DNA of 12,372 nucleotides from Hormiphora californensis (taxonomy: Eukaryota; Animalia; Ctenophora): contig WFME01000031.1 of assembly GCA_020137815.1 (NCBI GenBank), forward strand, positions 1 to 12,372, written 5' to 3'. How positions within the stretch are numbered: position 1 is the first letter of the stretch; every line of letters starts with the position of its first letter. Under the pieces are notes generated by a model, which was not told the origin of the DNA, ran no database searches, and saw only the letters and a program-made list of their open reading frames with translations. The position numbers and the translations under genes were made by a program. This document shows positions 1 through 12,372 of the stretch, piece after piece.

Positions 1-199
1 ACTTAGAAGAAGAGCCCCACACAAAGAAGAAAAGAGGAAATGAGGGAAAATGATAAGGAAAAGAAAAGGAGGGGAAAAAAACAAAAAAGAAGAAGCGAAA
101 TGAAACAAAAGAAAAAAGGTAAAGGAAAGAGGAGGATATCATACCCAACAGGAGCAGCGAACCTGCAAAGCAGTATCGGGGGAGTAGTTTTGCTACTAC

Positions 200-256
<57 letters not shown>

Positions 257-387
257 GCTGTCTGTCTGTCTGCCTGTCTGTCTGTCTGACCTGTGTTGAC
301 TGTCTGTGTCTTCTGACTGTCTGTCTATCTGTCTGTCTGACTGTCTGACTGTCTGTATATCTGTCCGTTTGTCTGTCTGTCTGTCTG

Positions 388-449
<62 letters not shown>

Positions 450-474
450 GTCTATCTGTCTGTCTGTCTGTCTG
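200..474. repeat. (TGTC)n tetranucleotide microsatellite, imperfect
   Basis: Directly visible TGTC tandem array with interruptions; explains the spurious LSVC-repeat ORFs. Confidence 0.97.
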
Positions 475-477
475 TAT

Positions 478-508
478 TTCTCTCTTTCTTTCTCTGTACC
501 CCTTTCAT

Positions 509-562
<54 letters not shown>

Positions 563-593
563 CCTCTCTCTCTCTCCTCTCTCTCTCTCTCTA

Positions 594-638
<45 letters not shown>
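478..638. repeat. (CT)n microsatellite / polypyrimidine tract
   Basis: Long CT dinucleotide run just upstream of the acceptor TTTTCCTCAG (ends 683). Confidence 0.96.
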
Positions 639-683
639 ATTCCTCCCACCTCCATACCAAATTCACTTTTTTCTTTTCCTCAG

Positions 684-839
684 CATTCATGAAAGAGATG
701 CTTCGCCGTTATGGAGGGATGACAGTCTTTCTAGACGCCACACACAAGGTGACCCGGTATAGTGACGTTGCCCTTGTAATCTTGGCCGTACACACCAATG
801 CTAAATTCCAGGTAATCTTTAACATCATTGAAGAGAGAT

Positions 840-933
<94 letters not shown>

Positions 934-3225
934 TGAGAGACAGTGAGAGAGATTAGTAGATTAGTTGTTAATGATTATGTTTTAATTTCTTTTCAGCCGG
1001 TTGGGATGATGTTATGCAAAGATGAGAGGGCAGTCACACTTGCAGCGTTTCTAAGCGAGCTAAAAGCAGAAACACCTTTTGAGCCCCGTTACTTTATGGT
1101 CGATAACTGCGGCGCGGAAATCAACGGAATTTTGGAAGTATTCCCTTCAACCAAAATACTTTTATGTATCTTCCATGTGATCCAGGTGAATATTTCTGTC
1201 TAAGATAAAACTTTCTTGGATTAGTCATGAGTTGTCAAAACGACCCCTCCCCCTGATGTTTACTTAGTAGTTTGATTTAGTACAACCTATTCTTTCTATA
1301 GGCCTGGCTACGGTGGGCAAAACCAAAGAGATTGTCAAAAGAGGATATTGGGCTGACAGTGCATCAGTTGGCGGTTGGTATTCTCTATGCTAAGACAACT
1401 GTGTGGGCGGCCAACGCCGAGACTCTCTTGTTGGAACAGGGCCATGCCCAGTTTGTTGACTATTACAGAGCAAACTACGAAAACATCAAGGAGGTGAGAA
1501 ATCTTGGCAGTTACAAAATAAAACTTTTCGGTTTAGATCAATAAAATGTGTAATCGGGGGTGTCTTAGAGCAATTAAAGTGAGAGTGGACAGAATCAGAA
1601 TTGGGCAAGTTTGTTGGAGGTTTTAGAGATTAGTTCTATATGCCGCTCAAAATCTACCCATCCATCACTGACATATTTTTGTTACTCTCGGGGAATTCCT
1701 GTTTAATCAGTATGTATAAAAACAGAATAGGAATAATCGTCGTGTTTTACTAACACATTCTAAATATAAGCAGTGATGTTGACATGTACATGCTCAGAAG
1801 CAGAACAATGCAACTCAGTATATTAGGATTGTTTCTATCCTGTTTGATAAATATTGATCCAGCAGGAATTCCCCGAGAGTAACAAAACTATCTCAGTGAT
1901 GGGTGGGTAGATTTTGAGCGGCAAAAAGGCAAAATGCTCATATAGAACTAATCTCTACTACCTCCAACAAACTTGTCCAATTCTGATTCTGTCCACTCCC
2001 ACTTTAATGTACATTTTCATTTTCAGAGATGGGCCATAAGCTACCGGGAAAACCGGGTCGACTTCTCCAACACTAACAACGGGGTGGAAAGACTGAACCG
2101 GTCCGTAAAAGAAGCGTTAGGCGGGAAGGGGAAGACGTACATGATGTTTAACACGCTCCAGGTAAATAACCATACCGGTCGGCCCGCCCTCCGGTTCGGA
2201 GAGGGCATTCTTTTGCGAGACAATGATATGTGTAATAGATATGTTGTCAGAATCATATACATATGATATATGTAGATAGATAATATTACCTCACTAGATT
2301 TTAACCTTTACCCGTTTTAGGTATTTTTTGTGTTCTTTGATAAATTAGAGAGATCGCATCGAGAGGAACAGAAAACCATGGCAGAGAAGTTGAAGGTCCC
2401 CGGCCCCAATGTTCCCCCATTTCTCAAAGAGTCCCCGCCAGTTCTGTGGCAACGATACATATCCGAGATGGCGAAATTCCGAAAAAGCAGTAAGTTGATA
2501 TTATGTTTTTAGAATATAAGGAACTATCATTACTATTTGTCCTTATCATGCGGCTCATAAACAATTATTCGTTACTTATTCTGTTGAACATTGCGAAGCT
2601 AGACTGCCTTTCGCGAGCACCGCACTTCCTTTACAAATGTAAAGGGAGGGTTAGAACATATAACAAGTTGAACAATGAACGCTAATAATATCGCCTTACT
2701 TTAAATTTGTTTCAGGTGTACCGGCAACAATCACCAAGCTGAGATCGGAATTTTTTGCTGTCGACCATGGAAGGAGGTATGTGGTGAACCTGCTCCATCC
2801 ATCATGTACATGCAGAGCGTTTGCCATGACGCACTTCCCCTGCCGGCACATGTTCTATCTGATGATCAAGGGGAGCTTTACGTGGGATGAGCTACCAGAG
2901 GACTTCCGAAAGGTGCCATTCTTCACAAAAGAGGTCCAGGCAGACACAGGAACACCAAGCTGGCCTCAGCTACCTCTTCCTGACTACGATGAGGTGGACC
3001 AGTCGGACGCAGGTGCCTACTCCGATGGACATTACTGAGGCACCAGCTGCAGCAGTTTCTCTGCGTCCAATTGACAAGCTATCGGACTTGAAGGCGACAA
3101 CAAACGCCATAACAGCAGCCTTGCTCGAGCCATCAGCCATTACTATGTCGGAGGAGGACAGGCTAGCCCTAGAAGAACGATTAAACCAATTTAAAGTTGA
3201 CCTGTATAAAGCCATTAATAAATGA
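684..3225 (+). CDS. Spliced Mutator-like (MULE) DDE transposase with C-terminal SWIM zinc finger; 5' part not located; apparent frameshift near the C-terminus
   Basis: Exons 684-811, 997-1185, 1302-1493, 2027-2161, 2321-2489 and 2716-3038/3225 join in frame across GT-AG introns. Motifs: VFLDATHK (D1), YFMVD (D2), LLCIFHVIQAW (CxxH), NTNNGVERLN (E), SWIM CTC-x7-CRH. The SWIM frame stops at 3038, while a helical-looking tail continues in another frame to 3225. Confidence 0.88.
832..951. repeat. (GA)n microsatellite in MULE intron 812-996
   Basis: Long GA dinucleotide run with a few GACA units. Confidence 0.97.
1578..2003. mobile_element. Non-autonomous TIR element (MITE) with TTAA flanks, Kolobok-like termini (AG...CT), inside MULE intron 1494-2026
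   Basis: TTAA at 1574-1577 and 2004-2007. Imperfect inverted arms of ~150 bp: AGTGAGAGTGGACAGAATCAGAATTGG... versus ...CCAATTCTGATTCTGTCCACTCCCACT. No ORF. Confidence 0.85.
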
Positions 3226-3324
3226 ATTTGTATCATAGTTTCTATATTTTTAATCAATTTCTTGTTTCCATGCATCCGGTCAGTATTAGCAGCAGTTATA
3301 CTGTGTCAGTACTGGGTATACTCT

Positions 3325-3464
3325 ATTTTTTTTCAACTGTTCACCCCCCAAAGTCGTGCGCGGAATTGTTTTGCGCGTCTATCACATGTTAACGTGTGGC
3401 GCGCGCAGCGTAAATTAAAATATCGCACACGCACGAGTTGGAGGGTGAACAGTTGAATAAAAAT
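3325..3464. repeat. ~140-bp inverted-repeat element (small MITE-like hairpin)
   Basis: TTCAACTGTTCACCCCCCAAAGTCGTGCG pairs with CGCACGAGTTGGAGGGTGAACAGTTGAA. Confidence 0.7.
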
Positions 3465-3470
3465 GGACTT

Positions 3471-3628
3471 TAAGTGGTAAAGGTTATGACTTGACGCATG
3501 TGTGTATAACTGAGTACATTGTACTCAACTAAACGTCGCGCGCGAGACATCGGTCAACTGACCACGGAGAACCTCGCGCGCTGTCGCACGTACCGTCTCT
3601 CAGGAGACGGGTCAACCTTTACCGCTTA
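3471..3628. mobile_element. ~160-bp MITE-like element with 15-bp TIR (TA flanks possible) and internal hairpins
   Basis: TAAGTGGTAAAGGTT (3471-3485) versus AACCTTTACCGCTTA (3614-3628), 1 mismatch. Internal palindromes TGAGTACA-T-TGTACTCA, GGTCAACTGACC and CCGTCTC-TCAG-GAGACGG. Confidence 0.6.
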
Positions 3629-4588
3629 CCTAAGATTGAGGTCGCCTATTATTGTAAGGGAATTATATCGCTTCGAGAGAACTTTATAATACGTTTCAGC
3701 TTGACTGTTGGATTCACAGTCGGAATAGTCGTATCTGTAATAGGTCGAGATGCATAACTTAGGTCCTTTCTTAGGCTTAACTAGAATACTAACTATTGGT
3801 AGGTCAGTTTGCTCCATAATAGCAGAGTACTGTATATCACTATGGTTTTTACATAATATCATTACTCCACCGCCCCCTTTTTTACCATACTTATTTTTGT
3901 CGATTTCACTTCTATCTTTTCTAAATATGGTGTAGAGAGAGTCCGATATAATTTCATTATTGCCTACATAGGAGTTGAGCCAGGTTTCATTTACTATAAC
4001 TATGTCAGGTTCATGTGTGTACAAGTATGCCTGGAGATCAAGGAGTTTTTTAGTTTGGAAAATAGGGCAGTCGCCACCAATGCTATTCATATGTATGAGG
4101 CCCTGTGCATTACAATATACTATTTTAATTCTATCGGGGCCAGGGTTTTTAATACCTGGGTTACATTGAACGAGGAGAAGGAGAGCAAGACCAGCAATAA
4201 AATAGAGACCACGGTTGTTGACTAATGTATTTTTAGGATAGATAGAGGCAATGTATGTTATTAATAGGTTTTTAGGGAAGAGCGTACTTAGTATTTGGGA
4301 GGACAGATTTAATGACGGGGAGGATGAAGCAGAGATTGAATAAGACTGTAGGTGGTAAACAACCAGAGAGTTTAATAGGATACAGAGAGATAGTGCTGTT
4401 AGAAAGATTATAGTTTTTAGACATGAACGAGTGGTTTGTGGGGGGTGTGGTTGTGGATCATCCGTGCGGCTACTCATTTCCTCAATAGAGTGAGGAAATG
4501 GTTGAGTTCGGTGCTTCTTCGAGAGAGAGTGTACTTTGATAGATTGAAAGCATCCGACTCTGAATCTAAAGAGCTGTAGATCGATCAT
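3626..4588 (-). pseudogene. LINE ORF2 N-terminus: hydrophobic leader, NPGP, AP endonuclease (EEP) domain, cut off right after GDLN
   Basis: APE motifs YCNAQGL, PDIVIVNETWL, FRKDR...GGGV, IIGDLN. The stop codon is supplied by the adjacent inverted-repeat element. Confidence 0.88.
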
Positions 4589-5061
4589 TATCGATTTTAA
4601 GTAAGCTTAACTAAACTTGTCGGTATGACTGGGGAGATTTCACTAGACTCCCTATTGAACTATAATATGCGGATTAAGAACTAGCTGGCTCTATTATACG
4701 GACTCAAAAGATACTTAAAAATATTGACTAAATGCCTCTTTCCAAGAGCACTGGGGTGGAGCATACCTCGTCCAAACAATGAACGATTAACACAGCACCC
4801 ACAGTGCTCCAAGAAATCGTCAAAGCACTCAAGCCAGCCAACACCCATTTCACCATTACTCCCGAAATAGTCATCAATGACTCCCCTCATTGTTTGGTTA
4901 AATCTGATAATACGGGGGGCTAACTCAGGACGGTCCAGTCTCGGTAGAACGCTTAGACAGTTTATTGTTGCACGCGGAAAACGGTAACTAAGTAAATCAA
5001 TGAGACCCAAATACATATGACATATATCTAAGATGCCATTAGGAGAAGCAATGTCATTGGT
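3629..5061 (-). mobile_element. CR1/L2-group non-LTR retrotransposon fragment (ORF1 C-terminus + ORF2 N-terminus), truncated at both ends
   Basis: Tandem ORF1 (SGNH esterase) and ORF2 (AP endonuclease) on the same strand with a ~90-bp spacer; no reverse transcriptase in the window. Confidence 0.85.
4681..5061 (-). pseudogene. LINE ORF1 remnant, SGNH/GDSL esterase-like domain
   Basis: The frame extends upstream of the ATG at 5016 to TND (block III GxND-like, 5053-5061), followed by SVLPR, IIRFN and a block V-like GMLHPS (Asp of DxxH absent). Confidence 0.75.
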
Positions 5062-5113
5062 TGCCTGCTACCGTAGCAGGTATAAGCTACGGTAACCTGC
5101 GTAACGCAGGCAA
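5061..5113. repeat. Compound palindrome (two hairpins inside an 8-bp inverted repeat) at the LINE breakpoint
   Basis: TTGCCTGC...GCAGGCAA enclosing CCTGCTAC-C-GTAGCAGG and CCTGCGT-A-ACGCAGG. Confidence 0.65.
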
Positions 5114-5218
5114 TACATAGAGTCTCTGTATCTCTCTATCTGAATCTCCATCTCTTTTCATCTATATACAACTTGTTGTTACTCAACAATATACAACAGC
5201 AGCAGCACCGTGCTTGTA

Positions 5219-5262
5219 GTGAGACTTTTACACTACGCTACGTGAGACTTTTACACTACGCT
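5219..5262. repeat. 21-bp direct duplication GTGAGACTTTTACACTACGCT x2
   Basis: Exact copies at 5219-5239 and 5242-5262, upstream of the crystallin gene. Confidence 0.9.
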
Positions 5263-5325
5263 CAACTGGAACATCCGGGTTTGGGGGTTTATTATTATTT
5301 ATTATTTGGGGGTGGGAGGATGCAG

Positions 5326-5332
5326 TATAAAT
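5326..5332 (+). promoter_or_regulatory. Candidate TATA box of the crystallin gene
   Basis: TATAAAT preceded by a G-rich tract, ~185 bp upstream of ATG 5511. Confidence 0.4.
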
Positions 5333-5433
5333 CTATGCAACTTTTACTTAGGTCAACAGCTGACTTTGTTTAGTGACGATCTAGTCTGGTATTTGTTGTT
5401 CTGCAATGTCTTGACCTCATTCAATTCAGTGTA

Positions 5434-5472
5434 ACCCAATTTGTGTTACCCAATTTGTGTTACCCAATATGT
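5434..5472. repeat. 14-bp tandem repeat ACCCAATTTGTGTT, ~2.8 copies
   Basis: Directly visible. Confidence 0.85.
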
Positions 5473-5510
5473 ATGTACATAACTCATAACATAATACTAT
5501 AGATCCCAGA

Positions 5511-5807
5511 ATGAAGGTATTCCTTGTTGCCCTGATCGCCCTCGTGGCCATGGCCACTGCCCGCCCCCATCTGGCCCTCTTCGAGCACGAACACTTCAGA
5601 GGTGGCCGCCACAACATCCATGGATCTCAGCCATGGGTTGGAGGATTCAACGATAAGGCTTCCAGTTGGCACGCACATCGCGGTAACTGGGATTGCTTTG
5701 AGCATGGTCATTTCAGAGGCCGACGCCTGAGAATGCCCCAGGGTTCCCGCAGGCCCGGCATGCCCGGTGGCTGGAACGACGTTATCTCCTCTTGCCGTCC
5801 CTTCTAA
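5511..5807 (+). CDS. Secreted single-domain betagamma-crystallin family protein (98 aa)
   Basis: Signal peptide MKVFLVALIALVAMATA; two FEHxHFRG hairpin signatures, each followed by an NDxxSS motif (NDKASS, NDVISS); GC-rich uninterrupted ORF with many C-ending codons. Confidence 0.9.
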   Translation: MKVFLVALIALVAMATARPHLALFEHEHFRGGRHNIHGSQPWVGGFNDKASSWHAHRGNWDCFEHGHFRGRRLRMPQGSRRPGMPGGWNDVISSCRPF

Positions 5808-5938
5808 ATTTCATATTGTGAAAATGTGAATTTTATCAGCGAATTTGAGTTAACTTAGCTGTTTAATTGTTTTCCGTTTGGAGGGGGATAGCATACCAAC
5901 TTGGCGACCAAGTAGTACTGGTATAGATCATCACTTAA

Positions 5939-8163
5939 CCCTTTGACGGCGACAGAGCATATATGCTACAGTCTATTCTAGGCGGCCTGGAAGTCCTTAT
6001 GTTTTATCTAGGTGGCCCGTATTTTGTCATAAGCTAGTTTTAGGGATTATGAACCTAAAACCACGTCCAGATCAGCTCAGAAAATCAAGAAAAAATTTTT
6101 ATAGCCCTTCTAAGGAGGCTAATTTCGGCTTTTTTTAAAAAACATTTCTCATTTTTTTTGTTTTTTGGGGGCACAACTAATCCTTTGAGGGAATAAAAGT
6201 GCTCGACATAACCGACCGAATGCAAAAAGCCGCATCAAAAAATATTGAAAATTGAATGAGTTATTAACATTTAAGGCGCCGTATCATATATGATACTATC
6301 GCCCGTAAGGGAATTCTAGTAACAAATCTAAATTGTACAAGTTTGTGGATGCTATGGCATAAATTTATGCTTTCATGTGATATGTAGCTACAAGTTCTAC
6401 AATCGTGAACGGTTTTTACCAGGAAAAGAACCCAAATTAGAGATTTGTATCATATATGATACTATCGTCCTAAGGGTAAATTATCCTAAAACATACATAA
6501 TTCGGGCTAGAAAAGGAGCTAAGAAACAAATCAGGGCACTAAAATGTGTAGAATCATCGCATTTGTGGTGGTAGAGCACATATTTAGGTCGCTATCTGGA
6601 TCCCTAATTGAGATAATTGGATAATTAGCTAATTATCTGTCCCGCGTGTGCTAATTATTCATGAAAATTTGCTCTGGGAAGGAGTTTTGAGACAAATGGG
6701 GGCACTAAAATGTGTAGAATCATCAAATTAGTGGGGGTAGAGCACATATTTAGGTCGCTATCTGGATCCATAATTGAGATAATTGGATAATTAGCTAATT
6801 AGTTGCCTTGGAGCGCTAATAAAAGAGACTAGGCGGAGTATACAAGACAAGTGAGGGCACTAAAATGTGTAAAATCATCGCCTTAGCGGGGGTAGAGCAC
6901 TTAGCTGAGTTTCTATTCCCACTCCTAAATGAGATAATTGGATAATTAGCTAATTGACGGTTGCACACCGTCCACTTTTCACCAAATCCCTTGGTTTCTA
7001 AGTAATCCTGAGCTCTTTTGCTCAATCTAAGGATCTTTGACTCGTTTTACACAATAGTATAGCACTCGATACAACCCTAGACACTGCCTTCAGCTCTTTA
7101 GAACCCTCTTGCTCCATTCTAGACCTCTCATACATCCAAGATCCAACTACAATCCTATAAAATTTTTATATCCTATTGCTTCTACAACACGTTCAACCTC
7201 TAATGTACTACAGTTTCCCATATTTATTGTTTGGACACACGGTTATAGGGGTTTATGGATATTAGGGGATGTCAGAAGATCCTTAAATTGAGCAAAAGAG
7301 CTCAGGATTACCTAGAAACCACGGGATTTGGTGAAAAGTGGACGGTGTGCAACCGTCAATTAGCTAATTATCCAATTATCTCATTTAGGAGTTGGAATAG
7401 AAACTCAGCTATGTGCTCTACCTCCACTAAGGCGATGATTTTACACATTTTAGTGCCCCTACTTGTCTTTGATACTCCGCAAAGTCTCATTTATTAGCGC
7501 TCCAGGGCAACTAATTAGCTAATTATCCAATTATCTCAATTATGGATCCAGATAGCGACCTAAATATGTGCTCTACCCCCACTAATTTGATGATTCTACA
7601 CATTTTAGTGCCCCCATTTGTCTCATAACTCCTTCCCAGAGCAAAGTTTCATGAATAATTAGCACACACGGGACAGATAATTAGCTAATTATCCAATTAT
7701 CTCAATTAGGGATCCAGATAGCGACCTAAATATGTGCTCTACCCCCACTAATGCGATGATTCTACACATTTTAGTGCCCCCATTTGTCTCTTAGCTCCTT
7801 TTCTAGCCCGAATTATGTATGTTTTAGGATAATTTACCCTTAGGACGATATGTATCATATATGATACAAATCTCTAATTTGGGTTCTTTTCCTGGTAAAA
7901 ACCGTTCACGATTGTAGAACTTGTAGCTACAAACCTCATGAAAGCATGAATTTATGCCATAACACCCACAAACTTGTACAATTTAGATTTGTTACTAGAA
8001 TTCCCTTACGGACGATAGTATCATATATGCTACAGCGGGCCCAGCAAAAACTACATGTCGGAATTACAAATTTCCTTTTCGAGGCGTTTTGTGTTGATAA
8101 TATCTACTTATAAACGAAAAATTAGAAAATTCTATCGAGCCAATCGTTCTCGCCGTCAAAGGG
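5939..8163. mobile_element. Non-autonomous piggyBac-like foldback element, 2225 bp
   Basis: TTAA (5935-5938) followed by a perfect 14-bp TIR CCCTTTGACGGCGA / TCGCCGTCAAAGGG (8150-8163); no transposase; right-hand TTAA disrupted. Confidence 0.82.
6281..8033. repeat. Long internal inverted repeat: arms 6281-7041 and 7271-8033, ~230-bp spacer, each arm with three ~100-bp subrepeats
   Basis: The arms are near reverse complements, giving the mirror ORFs 6816-7025(-) and 7255-7497(+). Subrepeats GGGCACTAAAATGTGT...GATAATTAGCTAATT start at 6534, 6700 and 6855. Confidence 0.95.
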
Positions 8164-8164
8164 T

Positions 8165-8284
8165 GTAGATAGTGGAGACGGATATGGAGATGTAGACGTA
8201 GATGTAAATGTAGATGTAGATGTAGATGGAGATGGAGATGGAGATGGAGATGGAGATGGAGATGGAGATGTAGATGGAGATGTA
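8165..8284. repeat. (GATGGA/GATGTA)n hexanucleotide microsatellite
   Basis: Directly visible. Confidence 0.93.
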
Positions 8285-11200
8285 AGTAGTATAGTGCGGA
8301 CAGTTGGGACCTATTTTAGCCTCCTAAGCGGGTCACCATTTTGTATGAGCATGTCAAGTGACTTCTAATTACCAAAATTATGCGGCGCTAGCAAGAGCTG
8401 TTCGCTAGAATATCGGGAGCGCCGGCAAGGGCCATGGAATTTATTTTGGCGCTGACAAGGACCCTAATTTTTGTTTGAAATTTCTGCGTGTTAGTGATGT
8501 CACCCCTATCACATTACACGAATTGCACCAGGTGTTCTGTTATAACTCAGTATTCCGGTGACTTTTCACTGGAAAGGAACAAGATTGGAACAGCGGGTAA
8601 TAGAACGGTATAGAATAAATTTAAAAAATGATTATCCCTGGTTTGATATTTGATTCCGTTAAAAACAACTTGAAGATCCATTGGCCCCCTATAAAATACA
8701 GTTCACTGTTTATTCAAATTGTACCAACGTGGTACAGGTGAAATGAAAACAAATTTAAAGTCTTTCTCCATTACACCACCTTCTCCATTACACCGCCTTC
8801 TAGTTGGAGATTCAGTACAGAGTAGTTCGGTCAGGCTTATTTCGTAGACCTTTGTCGATTGCTGGTTTCTTGCCTGACGCACCAGTAGCCTTGGAACGAG
8901 AGCTTTACTTTTGACGTTTATATGGAAACTGGCTTCTTACCGGAGGCGCTAGGTCTTTTCCGCTGGCCTGAACCAGATGCAGTCTTGAGCCATCATAAAA
9001 CCAGGGCTTTGATTTCCACCTTCGAGATAAAGAATCCTGTTGTCCTTTTGGTAACCATTATGTAAGCACTGTTCCGAGTTATTTCTCCTTCAAACTAACA
9101 CAGTTAAAGACACAGACTTTTAAAACTGGTAATAGATCCATAATATAATGACGCTCCATACAGTTTAGATACATAATACCTGTACCAGGTAAATTATTAC
9201 CGGAACAGTTTAAAAAAAAAAAAGATACTCTATATATTTTAAGCAGAGTCAGTAAATAACACACAATGTGTGACACATGCTAACTAAAAAATAAAATTAA
9301 CAAAGAAGAAAAAACTTCAAACATCTAGATACGTCGTAGACATCCCATCTTGTAAGACCTTACGTTTAACATAGATGTGGGATAAGCCCGACTTTTTAAC
9401 ATTGTATGTATACATCTGACCATCCTTGTACCTGAACCCTTTGTTAGTTTGATTTCAATATCATTTCTAAGTAGAACATTGCGATAGTCTTCAAAGGTAA
9501 GATTGTAGTGATGGGAGACTCCTTTGGAACTATACTTTGAGCTGGGTCCAGAGCAGAAATATGTCTTCGCATTTAGACCTATAAACGCATCCCCGGACCA
9601 CTCCTCTTTGAACAAACCTGAAAGAATAATGTTTTGTAGAGGTGTGTGACATACAGTGTGTCAAAGTAAGGAGAAGTATAATTAGTATGAAATATTTTGT
9701 ATTTAACATACCAGGCGTCCTTTTATCAAATGCCTTGTATTCAGGCCGGGGGAAGCGTTCTTGTTTGACAATTTCCCATTCTTCTCGCATCTCAGGTTTG
9801 ACAAGCTCGTCCAGAGAATCAGCAGCGAGTGCTAGATACAGAGAATCTAAAAGTTGTCGTGTTAGAAATTATCGAGTAATGGTCACTGATAATTGCAATG
9901 ATACCCTTCGCATCTGCACTCGCATTATACCTGTGTCCATTTCCAGCAGACAGAAATCTGTCCTCTCGATAAAGCGGTCCACAACATCATAGTAAAACTG
10001 TAGCATTTTGAGTTTGGCGTATGAATAAACCAAGAAACCCAACTGGATCGGGAGATCGTGAGTGATGCGCTTCTTTTTTAGCGTAACCTGCAGAGAACAA
10101 CTAATTAATGAAATGTCAGAAAACTGAAAAGACTCGAAGTTATCAAATATTAGTTATGTGTACCTCAAAAGTTTCATCATCTAGCTCTTCAAATCCATAC
10201 ATCAGGGGGTCATTGATCAGCTTGCTGGCTTTAACAAGACCAGTGATGCGAACGGTGGTGTGACGGTCCTTTCTCATCACTGAGTGCCCATACACACTAT
10301 TTCCAATAAGTTTTGACGTCTCGGCAATAGGCGCTTTGCTTGGGTCTTTGTCGCCTGGGAATAAATTATAGACAGAGAAGGTTACAAGCGTCAAGCATTG
10401 TTACCCCAGGCAGTAAACAGGGTCGAGTAAAGTAATGTTACCTGCTCTTCGATCATCGGACACATTTTCAGCAAACTTCTTGAAACAACGGAGAGGGTTA
10501 AACTGGATAAACTGATGGAGCTTTGTAACCACAAGTCCATTGTCGAGGTACCACTTTAGTAGTGGGGTTATCAAAAGAATTTGGGTTGCAAACATCGAAC
10601 CGATTAAATTCCTTCGTTCTTTGAATACCTCCCCACTCTCCTTCAGAACTTCCGTCATATATTCCCCGATGTCATCCGCTGATATTGTGGTATTCTTGAA
10701 CAGCGGTGTCATCTCACTGAATCTAGGAGGGAAGTTTCATAGTAGCTACATACACACATCATTGAATACGTGGAGAGAGGATATTACCTGTCTTTTAACT
10801 CCTTGGGAACATGAATGTCCACTTCAACAGCACCAAAGAGGGTACCGTCTTGGATAGATTTCAGAATTGTCTTTTCTGTCAGACGGTACTTATCCTCCAA
10901 AGGGTACAGATATTTAGTCGGTAGTGTAACAGTTTTACGAAGTGCTTTCCATTTACACTCCCACATTTCAACAACCTAAAGAAATGTTTGATAACTTGCT
11001 ACACAGGTTTACGCCATGTAAAAACATTTGAGTCATCGTCTTACCTTGTATCCATACAGCCTGAAACTATCTGTGATTTCAACGGTCTTTTCGTACCGCT
11101 CTTCAAAGCTCCATGTTCTTTTCTCAGTCACTTCCTCTCGGTTTTCAGTATAACAGTTAGGACACCCATGAAAGTAACAGCCATGGAACTGGTATATTGT

Positions 11201-12372
11201 CTGACTTTTCTGGAATAAGAGAGTAATTATAAACATTATAATAGGGTTAACTTGACTGTCAATTAATAATTAGAACAGATCTTAGAACAGATTCTTACTT
11301 GTGGAATCCATCTACAGGGATCTTCTTAGCACCAATCCGCACTTCTCCACTATTTCTAGCGTGTTGTATATCGATCTGTTGCTCCTGTTCGCACCAGCTC
11401 AACCACTCACAGGCCACTTTAGAAATGGGTGTTGGATACTGAACAAAGAAATCAGGGGCTCGCCTACGTAGTGGCATACCACAGGGCATGTCCTCCGCCA
11501 TACAGCCTGGAACAAGGTTATGTTAAAATCTAAGACCCCAATGACCGCCAATCAAAATAATACAGGGCGAGAAAAATTGTGAGATCTTGCGAATCGAACA
11601 TACCACAAAGTACACTTACACAGGTACAGGGCATTTGCATCGAATCCAATCACTTTCTTACAAATCTTCCCATAATCCTGGTGCCTTATCCTGGTAACAC
11701 CAGTCTCTTGATATCGATCAAAAATGATTGCTGGGCCTCCAACGTTATTAGAGAGAAACAGCTTGACCAAGTCCTTGTTCTTGTAATTGAAAAGATGAAA
11801 CGTTTCATCTCTCCCATTGAGTCCCTTGAACGCAATACGTTCTGCTATTCCAGGAACTGAAGTGGGTGTTACATCAAACAACTACTAACTTACAAGATTT
11901 ACTTGTTTTGAACACAACATGACAACTAATTACCTGACAGCGCCTCTTTAAATACATCCACACCACGGTCAATGTAATATGTCACCAGATTATCAATTGC
12001 TTCGAGGAGGGGCACTGTGTCTAGGTTGTTGTAGAACACAAGATAGTCTTTAATCGACCATGAGTTGCTGTCAAACATGGTTTTCAGCTGGTTGTACCGG
12101 AAATGACCAACCAGGCTCACCTCCTCTGGTGTCATTGGTTCGGCTCTGGATGGTGACCGCCCTAAAGCTATCGTCTCGTTGTCATTGAGAGTTTCTCCAG
12201 CCGCTGGTTCAAGCATATTCTTGTCTTTGAGGGAAGAGTAGAAATCTTGATAGGACGGAAACTCAGTAACCTGGAGCTTTTCATAAGCGTCCAGATGTTC
12301 ATATGGGAAATATGACTTTCTTTGTTTTGCCCCATAAGCCTTGGTAAAAGAGTCGAGACTATTTCCAGCGGG
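8285..12372 (-). mobile_element. Polinton/Maverick (endogenous polintovirus/adintovirus-like) terminal segment; continues beyond the window
   Basis: Polinton-type pPolB gene, plus an abrupt AGTAGT start of non-repetitive sequence at 8285 that matches typical Polinton AG/AGT-repeat termini. Confidence 0.78.
9317..12372 (-). CDS. Protein-primed family B DNA polymerase (Polinton pPolB) with VSR-like nuclease insert; 10 exons / 9 introns in window; two apparent 1-nt deletions
   Basis: Exons (minus): 12372-11934, 11856-11620, 11506-11299, 11209-11045, 10975-10788, 10722-10442, 10354-10164, 10087-9931, 9846-9712, 9617-9317. Motifs: KSYFPYE, ExoIII YNNLD, A IGFDANALY, B KLIGNSVYG, C EMDTDSLY, RTPGLFKEE, KTY, SSKGV, C-terminal NKGFR...YVKRKVLQDGMST. 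Confidence 0.93.

What the first reader, a model, noticed from the sequence alone, without database searches (positions are those of the whole stretch)
9317..12372. Polinton/Maverick protein-primed DNA polymerase split by nine short spliceosomal introns
Seen: GT-AG introns of 65-113 bp at 11933-11857, 11619-11507, 11298-11210, 11044-10976, 10787-10723, 10441-10355, 10163-10088, 9930-9847 and 9711-9618. Removing them rebuilds ~770 aa of pPolB; eight junctions are directly in frame and the third needs one extra base. Junctions fall in conserved motifs (EALS/VPG, DANALYL/CCM, RRA/GD, EMDT/DSLY, RTP/GLFK). Known: Polinton and adintovirus polymerase genes are normally single long ORFs. Inference: this is a virus-like self-synthesising element with host-like intron density (about one intron per 230 coding nt). 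Such a lineage would be missed by ORF-based virus and TE searches, would depend on the host spliceosome, and might use introns to escape silencing of intronless foreign DNA. A domesticated polymerase is the alternative, though the apparent terminus 1 kb downstream favours a mobile element.
Basis: partly seen in the sequence, partly recalled or inferred. Interest (0 to 1): 0.88.

Follow-up and report, generated by a model that had tools for sequence, protein, structure and literature searches.

The report
Polinton polymerase gene with inherited introns
A virus-like transposon (Polinton) in a marine animal, likely a comb jelly, has its DNA polymerase gene split by nine host-type introns, seven at the same spots as in a distant relative, so this lineage likely needs the host's splicing machinery, although the core genes of such elements are described as intron-free.

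Summary
Confirmed. All nine GT-AG introns are real. The ten exons tile end to end on uninterrupted relatives, and my own spliced aligner recovers all nine donors and eight of the nine acceptors. The gene is a VSR-containing protein-primed Polinton polymerase. The introns are inherited, not decay. Seven of nine lie at the same codon and phase in one metagenomic relative. About 35 relatives break at shared sites, and all intron-bearing rows in the tree fall in one clade (SH-aLRT 100) with Bolinopsis and Mnemiopsis gene models. In Mnemiopsis the gene is multicopy and numbered next to an uninterrupted 434-aa capsid gene. Introns avoid the first ~580 codons and are enriched in conserved catalytic motifs (p about 0.001-0.015). 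Splicing was not seen in RNA; one shallow RNA run holds unspliced sequence. Escape from silencing is untested and doubtful. Ten literature searches found no description of such a lineage in animals, but this scan noted intron-split Polinton genes in at least seven other windows. New variant of a known kind; interest 0.7.

The parts
11934..12372 (-). pPolB exon (3' part of the long exon; runs off the window); ends with the ExoIII motif YNNxD region
11857..11933 (-). intron 1 (77 nt, codon 776 of P0082, phase 1); shared by 6 of 6 clade loci that cover it
11620..11856 (-). exon 2, ends in polymerase motif A (DANALY)
11507..11619 (-). intron 2 (113 nt, codon 854, phase 1); shared by 4 of 5 loci
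11299..11506 (-). exon 3, ends in the VDG motif of the VSR-like domain
11210..11298 (-). intron 3 (89 nt, codon 924, phase 2); shared by 3 of 3 loci; junction out of register in this copy at the listed acceptor, second AG ends at 11205
11045..11209 (-). exon 4, VSR HGC..HG motif
10976..11044 (-). intron 4 (69 nt, codon 982, phase 0); absent in 3 of 3 relatives covering it
10788..10975 (-). exon 5
10723..10787 (-). intron 5 (65 nt, codon 1044, phase 2); absent in 3 of 3 relatives covering it
10442..10722 (-). exon 6
10355..10441 (-). intron 6 (87 nt, codon 1138, phase 1); shared with L002; replaced by a different 80-nt sequence in a contig of organism B
10164..10354 (-). exon 7, polymerase motif B (KLIGNSVYG)
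10088..10163 (-). intron 7 (76 nt, codon 1202, phase 0); shared with L002
9931..10087 (-). exon 8, ends inside motif C (MDT)
9847..9930 (-). intron 8 (84 nt, codon 1254, phase 1), splits the catalytic Asp codon of motif C; shared with L002
9712..9846 (-). exon 9
9618..9711 (-). intron 9 (94 nt, codon 1302, phase 1); shared with L002
9317..9617 (-). last exon (KxY motif), frameshifted near 9456 in this copy; stop codon 9319-9317
8285..8550 (.). likely terminal inverted repeat of the element, beginning AGTAGT, next to a (GATGGA/GATGTA)n tract; inner limit approximate
   Evidence: (AGT)2 end motif in PMC8097293; second end not in the window

Best explanation
This is one end of an integrated Polinton/Maverick element whose protein-primed DNA polymerase gene carries nine inherited GT-AG introns that the host spliceosome likely removes to make the replicase. 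Shown: the exon-intron layout, the polymerase identity, intron positions shared across one clade that includes ctenophore genes, third-position bias among copies, several copies and an uninterrupted capsid gene in a relative, and damage in this copy. Inferred: the host is a ctenophore; host RNA polymerase II transcribes the gene in the nucleus; the element copies itself DNA-to-DNA, so nothing purges introns once gained and they travel with every new copy; introns were gained and lost one by one over a long residence (19 positions, patchy on the tree, no likeness between introns). Gains are likely favoured or kept at conserved catalytic motifs, so an unspliced transcript would give only the terminal-protein, protease and part of the exonuclease region and no polymerase activity.
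For: Layout and controls. Identity: a model of relative P0031 (pLDDT 91) matches phi29 polymerase best in the PDB (E 3e-12) and adintovirus PolB best among viral models (E 2e-39); the family profile hits E. coli Vsr (E 2e-5). Inheritance: L002 shares 7 of 9 sites (chance 3e-17); L001, L004, L006, L007, L009 and L030 share sites with the window or with each other. Of 67 proteins ORFs end at codon 776 (3 more do so), 15 at 746 and 4 at 580. One clade, SH-aLRT 100, 19 of 42 rows (FastTree 1.0 on 90 rows). L001 is 96-98% identical, exon by exon, to the continuous Bolinopsis RefSeq model XP_063694943 and has introns at 776, 827 and 854. Selection: 18 of 22 listed exonic differences in other samples are at third codon positions (p 4e-6); an organism-B contig keeps both flanking exons but has a different intron 6. 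Mobility: one identical Mnemiopsis model has 4 accessions; 434-aa capsid genes carry accession numbers next to or two from polymerase models at 3 loci; AGTAGT end and raised depth at 8285-8550. Motif bias.
Against: No spliced read or contig was seen. The one RNA run with any cover (X13, depth 2-4) runs through intron 8 and part of intron 9 unspliced, and a second possible RNA run has no cover. The Bolinopsis and Mnemiopsis proteins are gene predictions whose RNA support I could not see, and several Mnemiopsis models are plainly mis-spliced. Uninterrupted ORFs (P0299/P0031, P0019, P0168) nest inside the clade; they may be cDNA, or members with few or no introns. This copy has two breaks. No capsid, integrase, ATPase or protease gene is in the window, and no genome is held. 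IMG/VR scans found no relative, so no free virus is shown. The host group is inferred from relatives at 59% identity.
Confidence: 0.85

Rival explanations
1. Domesticated host gene: the polymerase was captured by the host long ago, gained introns as host genes do, and no longer belongs to a mobile element.
For: Long-conserved intron positions and third-position bias are what a host gene shows. No other Polinton core gene lies in the window.
Against: Several divergent lineages per host and identical copies at several Mnemiopsis loci. Capsid genes numbered next to the polymerase models. A Polinton end motif 1 kb downstream, with related contigs starting at the same motif. This copy is broken and sits among other repeats.
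Confidence: 0.05
2. The introns are real but passive. They came in after integration, by introner insertion or repair, at G-rich proto-splice sites, and their place in motifs reflects only sequence preference and survival, with no benefit to the element.
For: 7 of 9 window donors have G at -1. 10 of 19 positions are phase 1 and 8 of these split Gly or Asp codons. Introners invade dinoflagellate Polinton-like proviruses after integration (PMC11957031, passages). This reading fits the main one and differs only on function.
Against: The motif bias remains against a residue-matched background (p 0.002 for 19 sites, 0.0005 for phase 1; not significant for phases 0 and 2, p 0.2). At most 1 of 45 introns lies before codon 580, which is 36% of the codons scanned (loci are not independent). 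No intron resembles another beyond shuffles, so no recent introner burst.
Confidence: 0.55
3. Decay insertions in a dead copy that only look like introns.
For: The copy has two frame breaks. Insertions in degraded vertebrate Mavericks are read as introns by Genewise (PMC8097293, passages). No spliced RNA seen.
Against: Exact GT-AG ends at homology-defined gaps (about 5e-13 for 8 junctions). Same codon and phase in relatives with unrelated intron sequences. In 10 control loci, 17 of 18 aligner gaps were stop-free in-frame insertions, unlike these.
Confidence: 0.01
4. The introns serve to escape host silencing of long intronless transcripts.
For: Introns protect transgenes from HUSH in human cells (PMC8770142, passages).
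Against: The same paper reports limited or no protection by short introns and HUSH marks on long exons. These introns are 65-248 nt, the first exon of close relatives is about 720 codons, and 79 of 93 capsid relatives are single full-length ORFs. Whether ctenophores have such a pathway was not tested.
Confidence: 0.1

Closest known systems
Polintons/Mavericks (adintoviruses) with VSR-containing pPolB2 (10.1101/2023.08.22.554363; PMC8502044; passages read)
   Same: Protein-primed PolB with Exo and Pol motifs and an inserted VSR domain; (AGT)2 end motif; multicopy; double-jelly-roll-like capsid gene in relatives.
   Different: [quoted passage not shown] Here the polymerase has nine introns in its catalytic half. 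Assignment to pPolB2 rests on the VSR domain and on the lack of a PF03175 match in P0082; no published pPolB2 was in my tree.
Introner-invaded maverick-polinton-like proviruses of dinoflagellates (PMC11957031, passages read)
   Same: Intron-type sequences inside full-length Polinton-like elements.
   Different: Those are young introner copies, mostly gained after integration in protists. Here the host is an animal, the introns are old, unlike each other, and held at fixed codons across a clade at 40-60% protein identity.
Intron-rich mirusviruses (PMC12768974, passages read)
   Same: Short GT-AG introns in core genes of a dsDNA virus lineage, read as a sign of nuclear, spliceosome-dependent reproduction.
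   Different: Another realm, unicellular hosts; introns are enriched in virion genes and some encode homing nucleases. Here they sit in the replicase, the capsid gene is uninterrupted, and the introns are too short to encode anything.

Membership tests
Polinton/Maverick | Protein-primed family B polymerase with Exo and Pol A/B/C motifs | tested here: met
   motifs in the window exons; fold of a 50%-identical relative matches phi29 and adintovirus PolB
Polinton/Maverick | Terminal inverted repeats with (AGT)2 or (AG)3 ends | tested here: inconclusive
   one end, AGTAGT at 8285, with raised depth and related contigs starting at the same motif; the other end is outside the window
Polinton/Maverick | 6-bp target site duplication | not testable with these tools
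   needs both ends; no genome held
Polinton/Maverick | Major capsid protein gene | tested here: inconclusive
   not in the window; present beside the Mnemiopsis relatives
Polinton/Maverick | Integrase, packaging ATPase, protease and minor capsid genes | tested here: inconclusive
   no match in window 1-9300 or in the flanks of L002 and L006 with 226 queries; the element leaves the window; a minor-capsid-like ORF upstream in L006 is a lead only (no BLAST match to L008)
Polinton/Maverick | Multiple dispersed copies | tested here: met
   divergent contigs at the same place in two studies of organism A; 16 named models, one with 4 identical accessions, in Mnemiopsis
Polinton/Maverick as described | Intronless core genes (a described trait, not a formal criterion) | tested here: not met
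   nine introns in the polymerase; this is the respect in which it is a variant
Spliceosomal (U2-type) intron | GT...AG ends, AT-rich, removal restores homology, position conserved while sequence diverges | tested here: met
   (43 GT and 1 GC donors; CAG 33, TAG 10, AAG 1 of 44 introns)
Spliceosomal (U2-type) intron | Removed from the RNA in vivo | tested here: inconclusive
   no spliced joint; only shallow unspliced RNA-run contigs
Introner-derived introns | Many near-identical intron copies at different sites | tested here: not met
   best pair score 34 against 30-35 in 5 shuffles, 44 introns

The most novel reading that the evidence does not exclude
A capsid-encoding Polinton lineage of ctenophores places and keeps spliceosomal introns in the catalytic motifs of its replicase (ExoII, ExoIII, Pol A, B, C and the VSR motifs), while the terminal-protein region and the capsid gene stay uninterrupted. 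Unrelated Polinton lineages hit the same motifs independently (L038 at 1155/1; L010 at 1154; L035 at 934 and 1158). Host splicing then acts as an on-switch for replication, or the introns shield the motifs from a DNA-cutting or homing activity, as self-splicing introns and inteins do.
Probability: 0.25. Interest if true: 0.87.

Novelty: new variant of a known kind. Interest (0 to 1): 0.7.

Why it matters
[quoted passage not shown] A spliced, apparently recently multiplied lineage in ctenophores means such surveys undercount intact elements and have little data from an early-branching animal phylum. It also ties Polinton gene expression to the nucleus and the spliceosome. And it gives a dated series of intron gains and losses in one viral gene, with a measurable bias to catalytic motifs, which makes the question of where new introns land and why directly testable.

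Tried and rejected
Pfam on single exons: no family at threshold; none for P0082 either. phmmer of P0082 against the PDB: nothing. IMG/VR scans: 0 confirmed of 169 and 0 of 9 pattern matches. GTDB scan: 5 distant loci; the 3 I aligned share no intron site. Single-sequence fold of P0070: pLDDT 32, not used. No genome for the window, so neighbours and copy number could not be read. Depth from Logan contigs is not copy number and is used only as a hint. RNA run X15 has no cover of the gene, and runs with small shares that I did not lay are not used. The idea that the capsid gene is spliced near residue 245, suggested by a fused Mnemiopsis model, was rejected: the model follows a 434-aa uninterrupted ORF for 257 residues and then leaves it. 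Introner origin by a recent burst was rejected. The first codon-position tally used a wrong frame for four sites and was redone. One candidate intron (L030, codon 407) was dropped from the counts; it has stops in all frames and may be real, so the 5' count is 0 or 1 of 45. L026, L028, L059 and L060 were not aligned. L004, L041 and L048 were left out of the trees as too short. Look-ups of earlier findings by place and by sequence were empty.
Full report
Observation. The nine intervals are as reported: GT...AG, 65-113 nt, richer in AT than the exons, and exons 1-9 each have one open frame. The ten exons abut end to end on uninterrupted relatives, leaving only the split codon between them. I wrote a profile-to-DNA spliced aligner; without being given coordinates it found all nine donors and eight of the nine acceptors, scoring 1818 against 25-28 on three shuffles and the wrong strand. 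Two corrections. Junction 3 is out of register at the listed acceptor; a second AG 5 nt on is in frame but is two residues short of the spacing in 15 of 15 relatives. The last exon also has a frameshift near 9456. Contigs from other samples show a gap against the window in the stretches that span both places, so the breaks look specific to this copy or this assembly.

What the protein is. The exons hold ExoIII, Pol A, B and C, KxY and the VDG and HGC..HG motifs (motif names are recalled). A profile of the family matches E. coli Vsr (E 2e-5). A model of relative P0031 (pLDDT 91) is closest to phi29 polymerase in the PDB (E 3e-12) and to adintovirus PolB among viral models (E 2e-39). This fits the VSR-containing pPolB2 type (10.1101/2023.08.22.554363, passages). 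By the domain order in 10.1101/2024.03.18.585575 (passages), the part upstream of the window would be terminal protein, vOTU protease and the start of the exonuclease; that assignment is inferred.

The introns are inherited. The seven best hits to exon 1 (49-59% identity) are ~700-aa ORFs that all stop within about 20 residues of the intron-1 donor. Of 67 proteins from two searches, 15 end at codon 776 of the Bolinopsis reference (3 more), 15 at 746 and 4 at 580; 9 run past 776 and the rest are partial. I aligned 53 of 55 metagenomic loci (the scan covered half of the collection). Seven close loci carry introns at shared codons and phases. L002 shares 7 of the window's 9 (chance 3e-17). Introns 4 and 5 are absent from 3 of 3 relatives that cover them. 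In 10 distant control loci, 17 of 18 aligner gaps were stop-free in-frame insertions. A few distant loci (L010, L035, L038, L041) do carry real-looking introns, some at or next to the same motifs. Trees place the window, six intron-bearing loci, the truncated ORFs and the ctenophore models in one clade (SH-aLRT 100, 19 of 42 rows; FastTree 1.0, 90 rows). The root is on uninterrupted relatives, and several rows are under half filled.

Host and mobility. Named relatives are Bolinopsis microptera (XP_063694943, 59% over 736 columns) and Mnemiopsis leidyi, so the host is probably a ctenophore; I did not identify it. L001 is 96-98% identical exon by exon to the continuous Bolinopsis model and has introns at 776, 827 and 854. 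ORFs in the Bolinopsis cluster end at 775, 924 and 1138, and Mnemiopsis models and ORFs break at 746, 776, 846, 924, 936, 1155, 1202 and 1302. One Mnemiopsis model has four identical accessions. Its N-terminus aligns with the capsid-like ORF of the intronless Polinton L008 (E 2e-12) and resembles double-jelly-roll clusters in the Atlas (lead). Of 93 relatives of that part, 79 are single 425-445-aa ORFs spanning the L008 protein. Three Mnemiopsis capsid accessions lie next to or two from polymerase accessions; adjacency on the chromosome is inferred from that. In the window, AGTAGT at 8285 matches the (AGT)2 Maverick end (PMC8097293, passages). Contigs of one sample begin with the same motif, and depth over 8285-8550 is far above the interior (contig depth is not copy number). 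No other core gene lies in window 1-9300.

Selection. Of the 31 differences in the gene that searches listed for 9317-11506 (the tool shows only the best supported), 22 are exonic; 18 are at third codon positions, 4 at first, none at second (p 4e-6). A contig of a second species keeps both exons around intron 6 (6 of 136 and 11 of 152 letters differ) but has a different 80-nt intron.

Pattern. The 44 introns counted are 65-248 nt, 29 of them phase 1, with no pair more alike than shuffles. None of the 44 lies before codon 580, although 2114 of 5822 codons scanned do; one dropped candidate at 407 may be real (loci are related, so the p value there overstates the case). Intron sites are more conserved among 51 outgroup rows than random codons: p 0.006-0.018 for the window's nine and 0.0002-0.0006 for 19 clade sites. 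With a residue-matched background, p is 0.010-0.015 and 0.001-0.002; the signal comes from phase-1 introns, and phases 0 and 2 are not significant.

Against the reading. Splicing was not observed. The only RNA run with cover holds two shallow contigs that run through intron 8 and part of intron 9 unspliced, which may be DNA or pre-mRNA. The ctenophore proteins are predictions. Uninterrupted ORFs nest in the clade: P0299 and P0031 over nearly the whole gene, P0019 to codon 876, P0168 from 776 on. They may be cDNA, which would prove splicing, or intron-poor members; their contigs could not be fetched. No relative was found in IMG/VR.

Mechanism. Most likely (0.85) the element is transcribed in the nucleus, spliced by the host, and copied DNA-to-DNA by its own polymerase, so gained introns stay with all progeny. 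Whether the motif bias has a function is open: passive gain and survival at G-rich sites is the likelier account (0.55), a switch or shield role is possible (0.25), and escape from intron-sensing silencing is unlikely (0.1), given the short introns, the long first exon and the intronless capsid gene (PMC8770142, passages).

Novelty. Ten full-text searches gave no paper describing spliced core genes in animal Polintons; two ctenophore searches gave nothing relevant in their listings. Passages read state the opposite or assume it (PMC8097293; 10.1101/2022.07.12.499685; PMC10120064; PMC9356565). The nearest precedents are introners in dinoflagellate proviruses (PMC11957031) and intron-rich mirusviruses (PMC12768974). 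Passages of PMC12220804, PMC8502044, PMC5718144 and two 2026 preprints held nothing on this. I read passages only, no supplements. Repbase entries, Kapitonov and Jurka 2006 and subscription journals were not seen and could hold earlier notes of such introns. This scan has noted intron-split Polinton genes in at least seven other windows; those notes are unchecked and are not counted as support. Verdict: real; a new variant of a known kind; interest 0.7.

Noticed in passing
window 684-3225 (+): MULE/SWIM transposase gene (Pfam MULE E 3e-9, SWIM E 4e-7) with five GT-AG introns picked by eye at 812-996, 1186-1301, 1494-2026, 2162-2320 and 2490-2715.
   Followed up: partly
window 1573-2008: Palindromic MITE-like element inside the third intron of that transposase gene; a weaker palindrome lies at 3322-3467.
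   Followed up: no
window 3626-4606 (-): 326-aa frame with an endonuclease/exonuclease/phosphatase domain (E 2e-4), likely the start of a LINE ORF2.
   Followed up: no
window 5511-5807 (+): Intronless 98-aa beta/gamma-crystallin-like gene (Pfam Crystall E 1e-9) with a hydrophobic N-terminus that looks like a signal peptide.
   Followed up: no
window 5936-8163: High-depth repeat with 765-nt inverted arms (6277-7041 and 7271-8037, 96%) made of ~160-nt subrepeats; the outer ends look piggyBac-like (TTAA then CCCTTTGACGGCGA, and its inverse near 8147-8163; family label recalled).
   Followed up: no
window 8780-9060 (-): Broken, basic, Ser/Gly/Lys-rich frame between the polymerase and the terminus, with locally raised depth in two runs; may be a small element gene.
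   Followed up: no
L006 845-1393 and 1394-2239 (-): Upstream of an intron-bearing polymerase: a stand-alone 182-aa ORF similar to the N-terminal region of pPolB (E to 1e-15) and an ORF resembling minor capsid clusters (lead only).
   Followed up: partly
L038, L010, L035, L041: Polymerases outside the clade carry frame-breaking GT-AG introns at 1155/1, 1154/0, 1158/2, 934/0 and 815-817/1, at or beside sites used in the clade, which suggests parallel gains.
   Followed up: partly
P0299, P0031, P0019, P0168: Uninterrupted ORFs nested in the intron-bearing clade; P0299 sits on a 4951-nt contig, about the size of an mRNA.
   Followed up: partly
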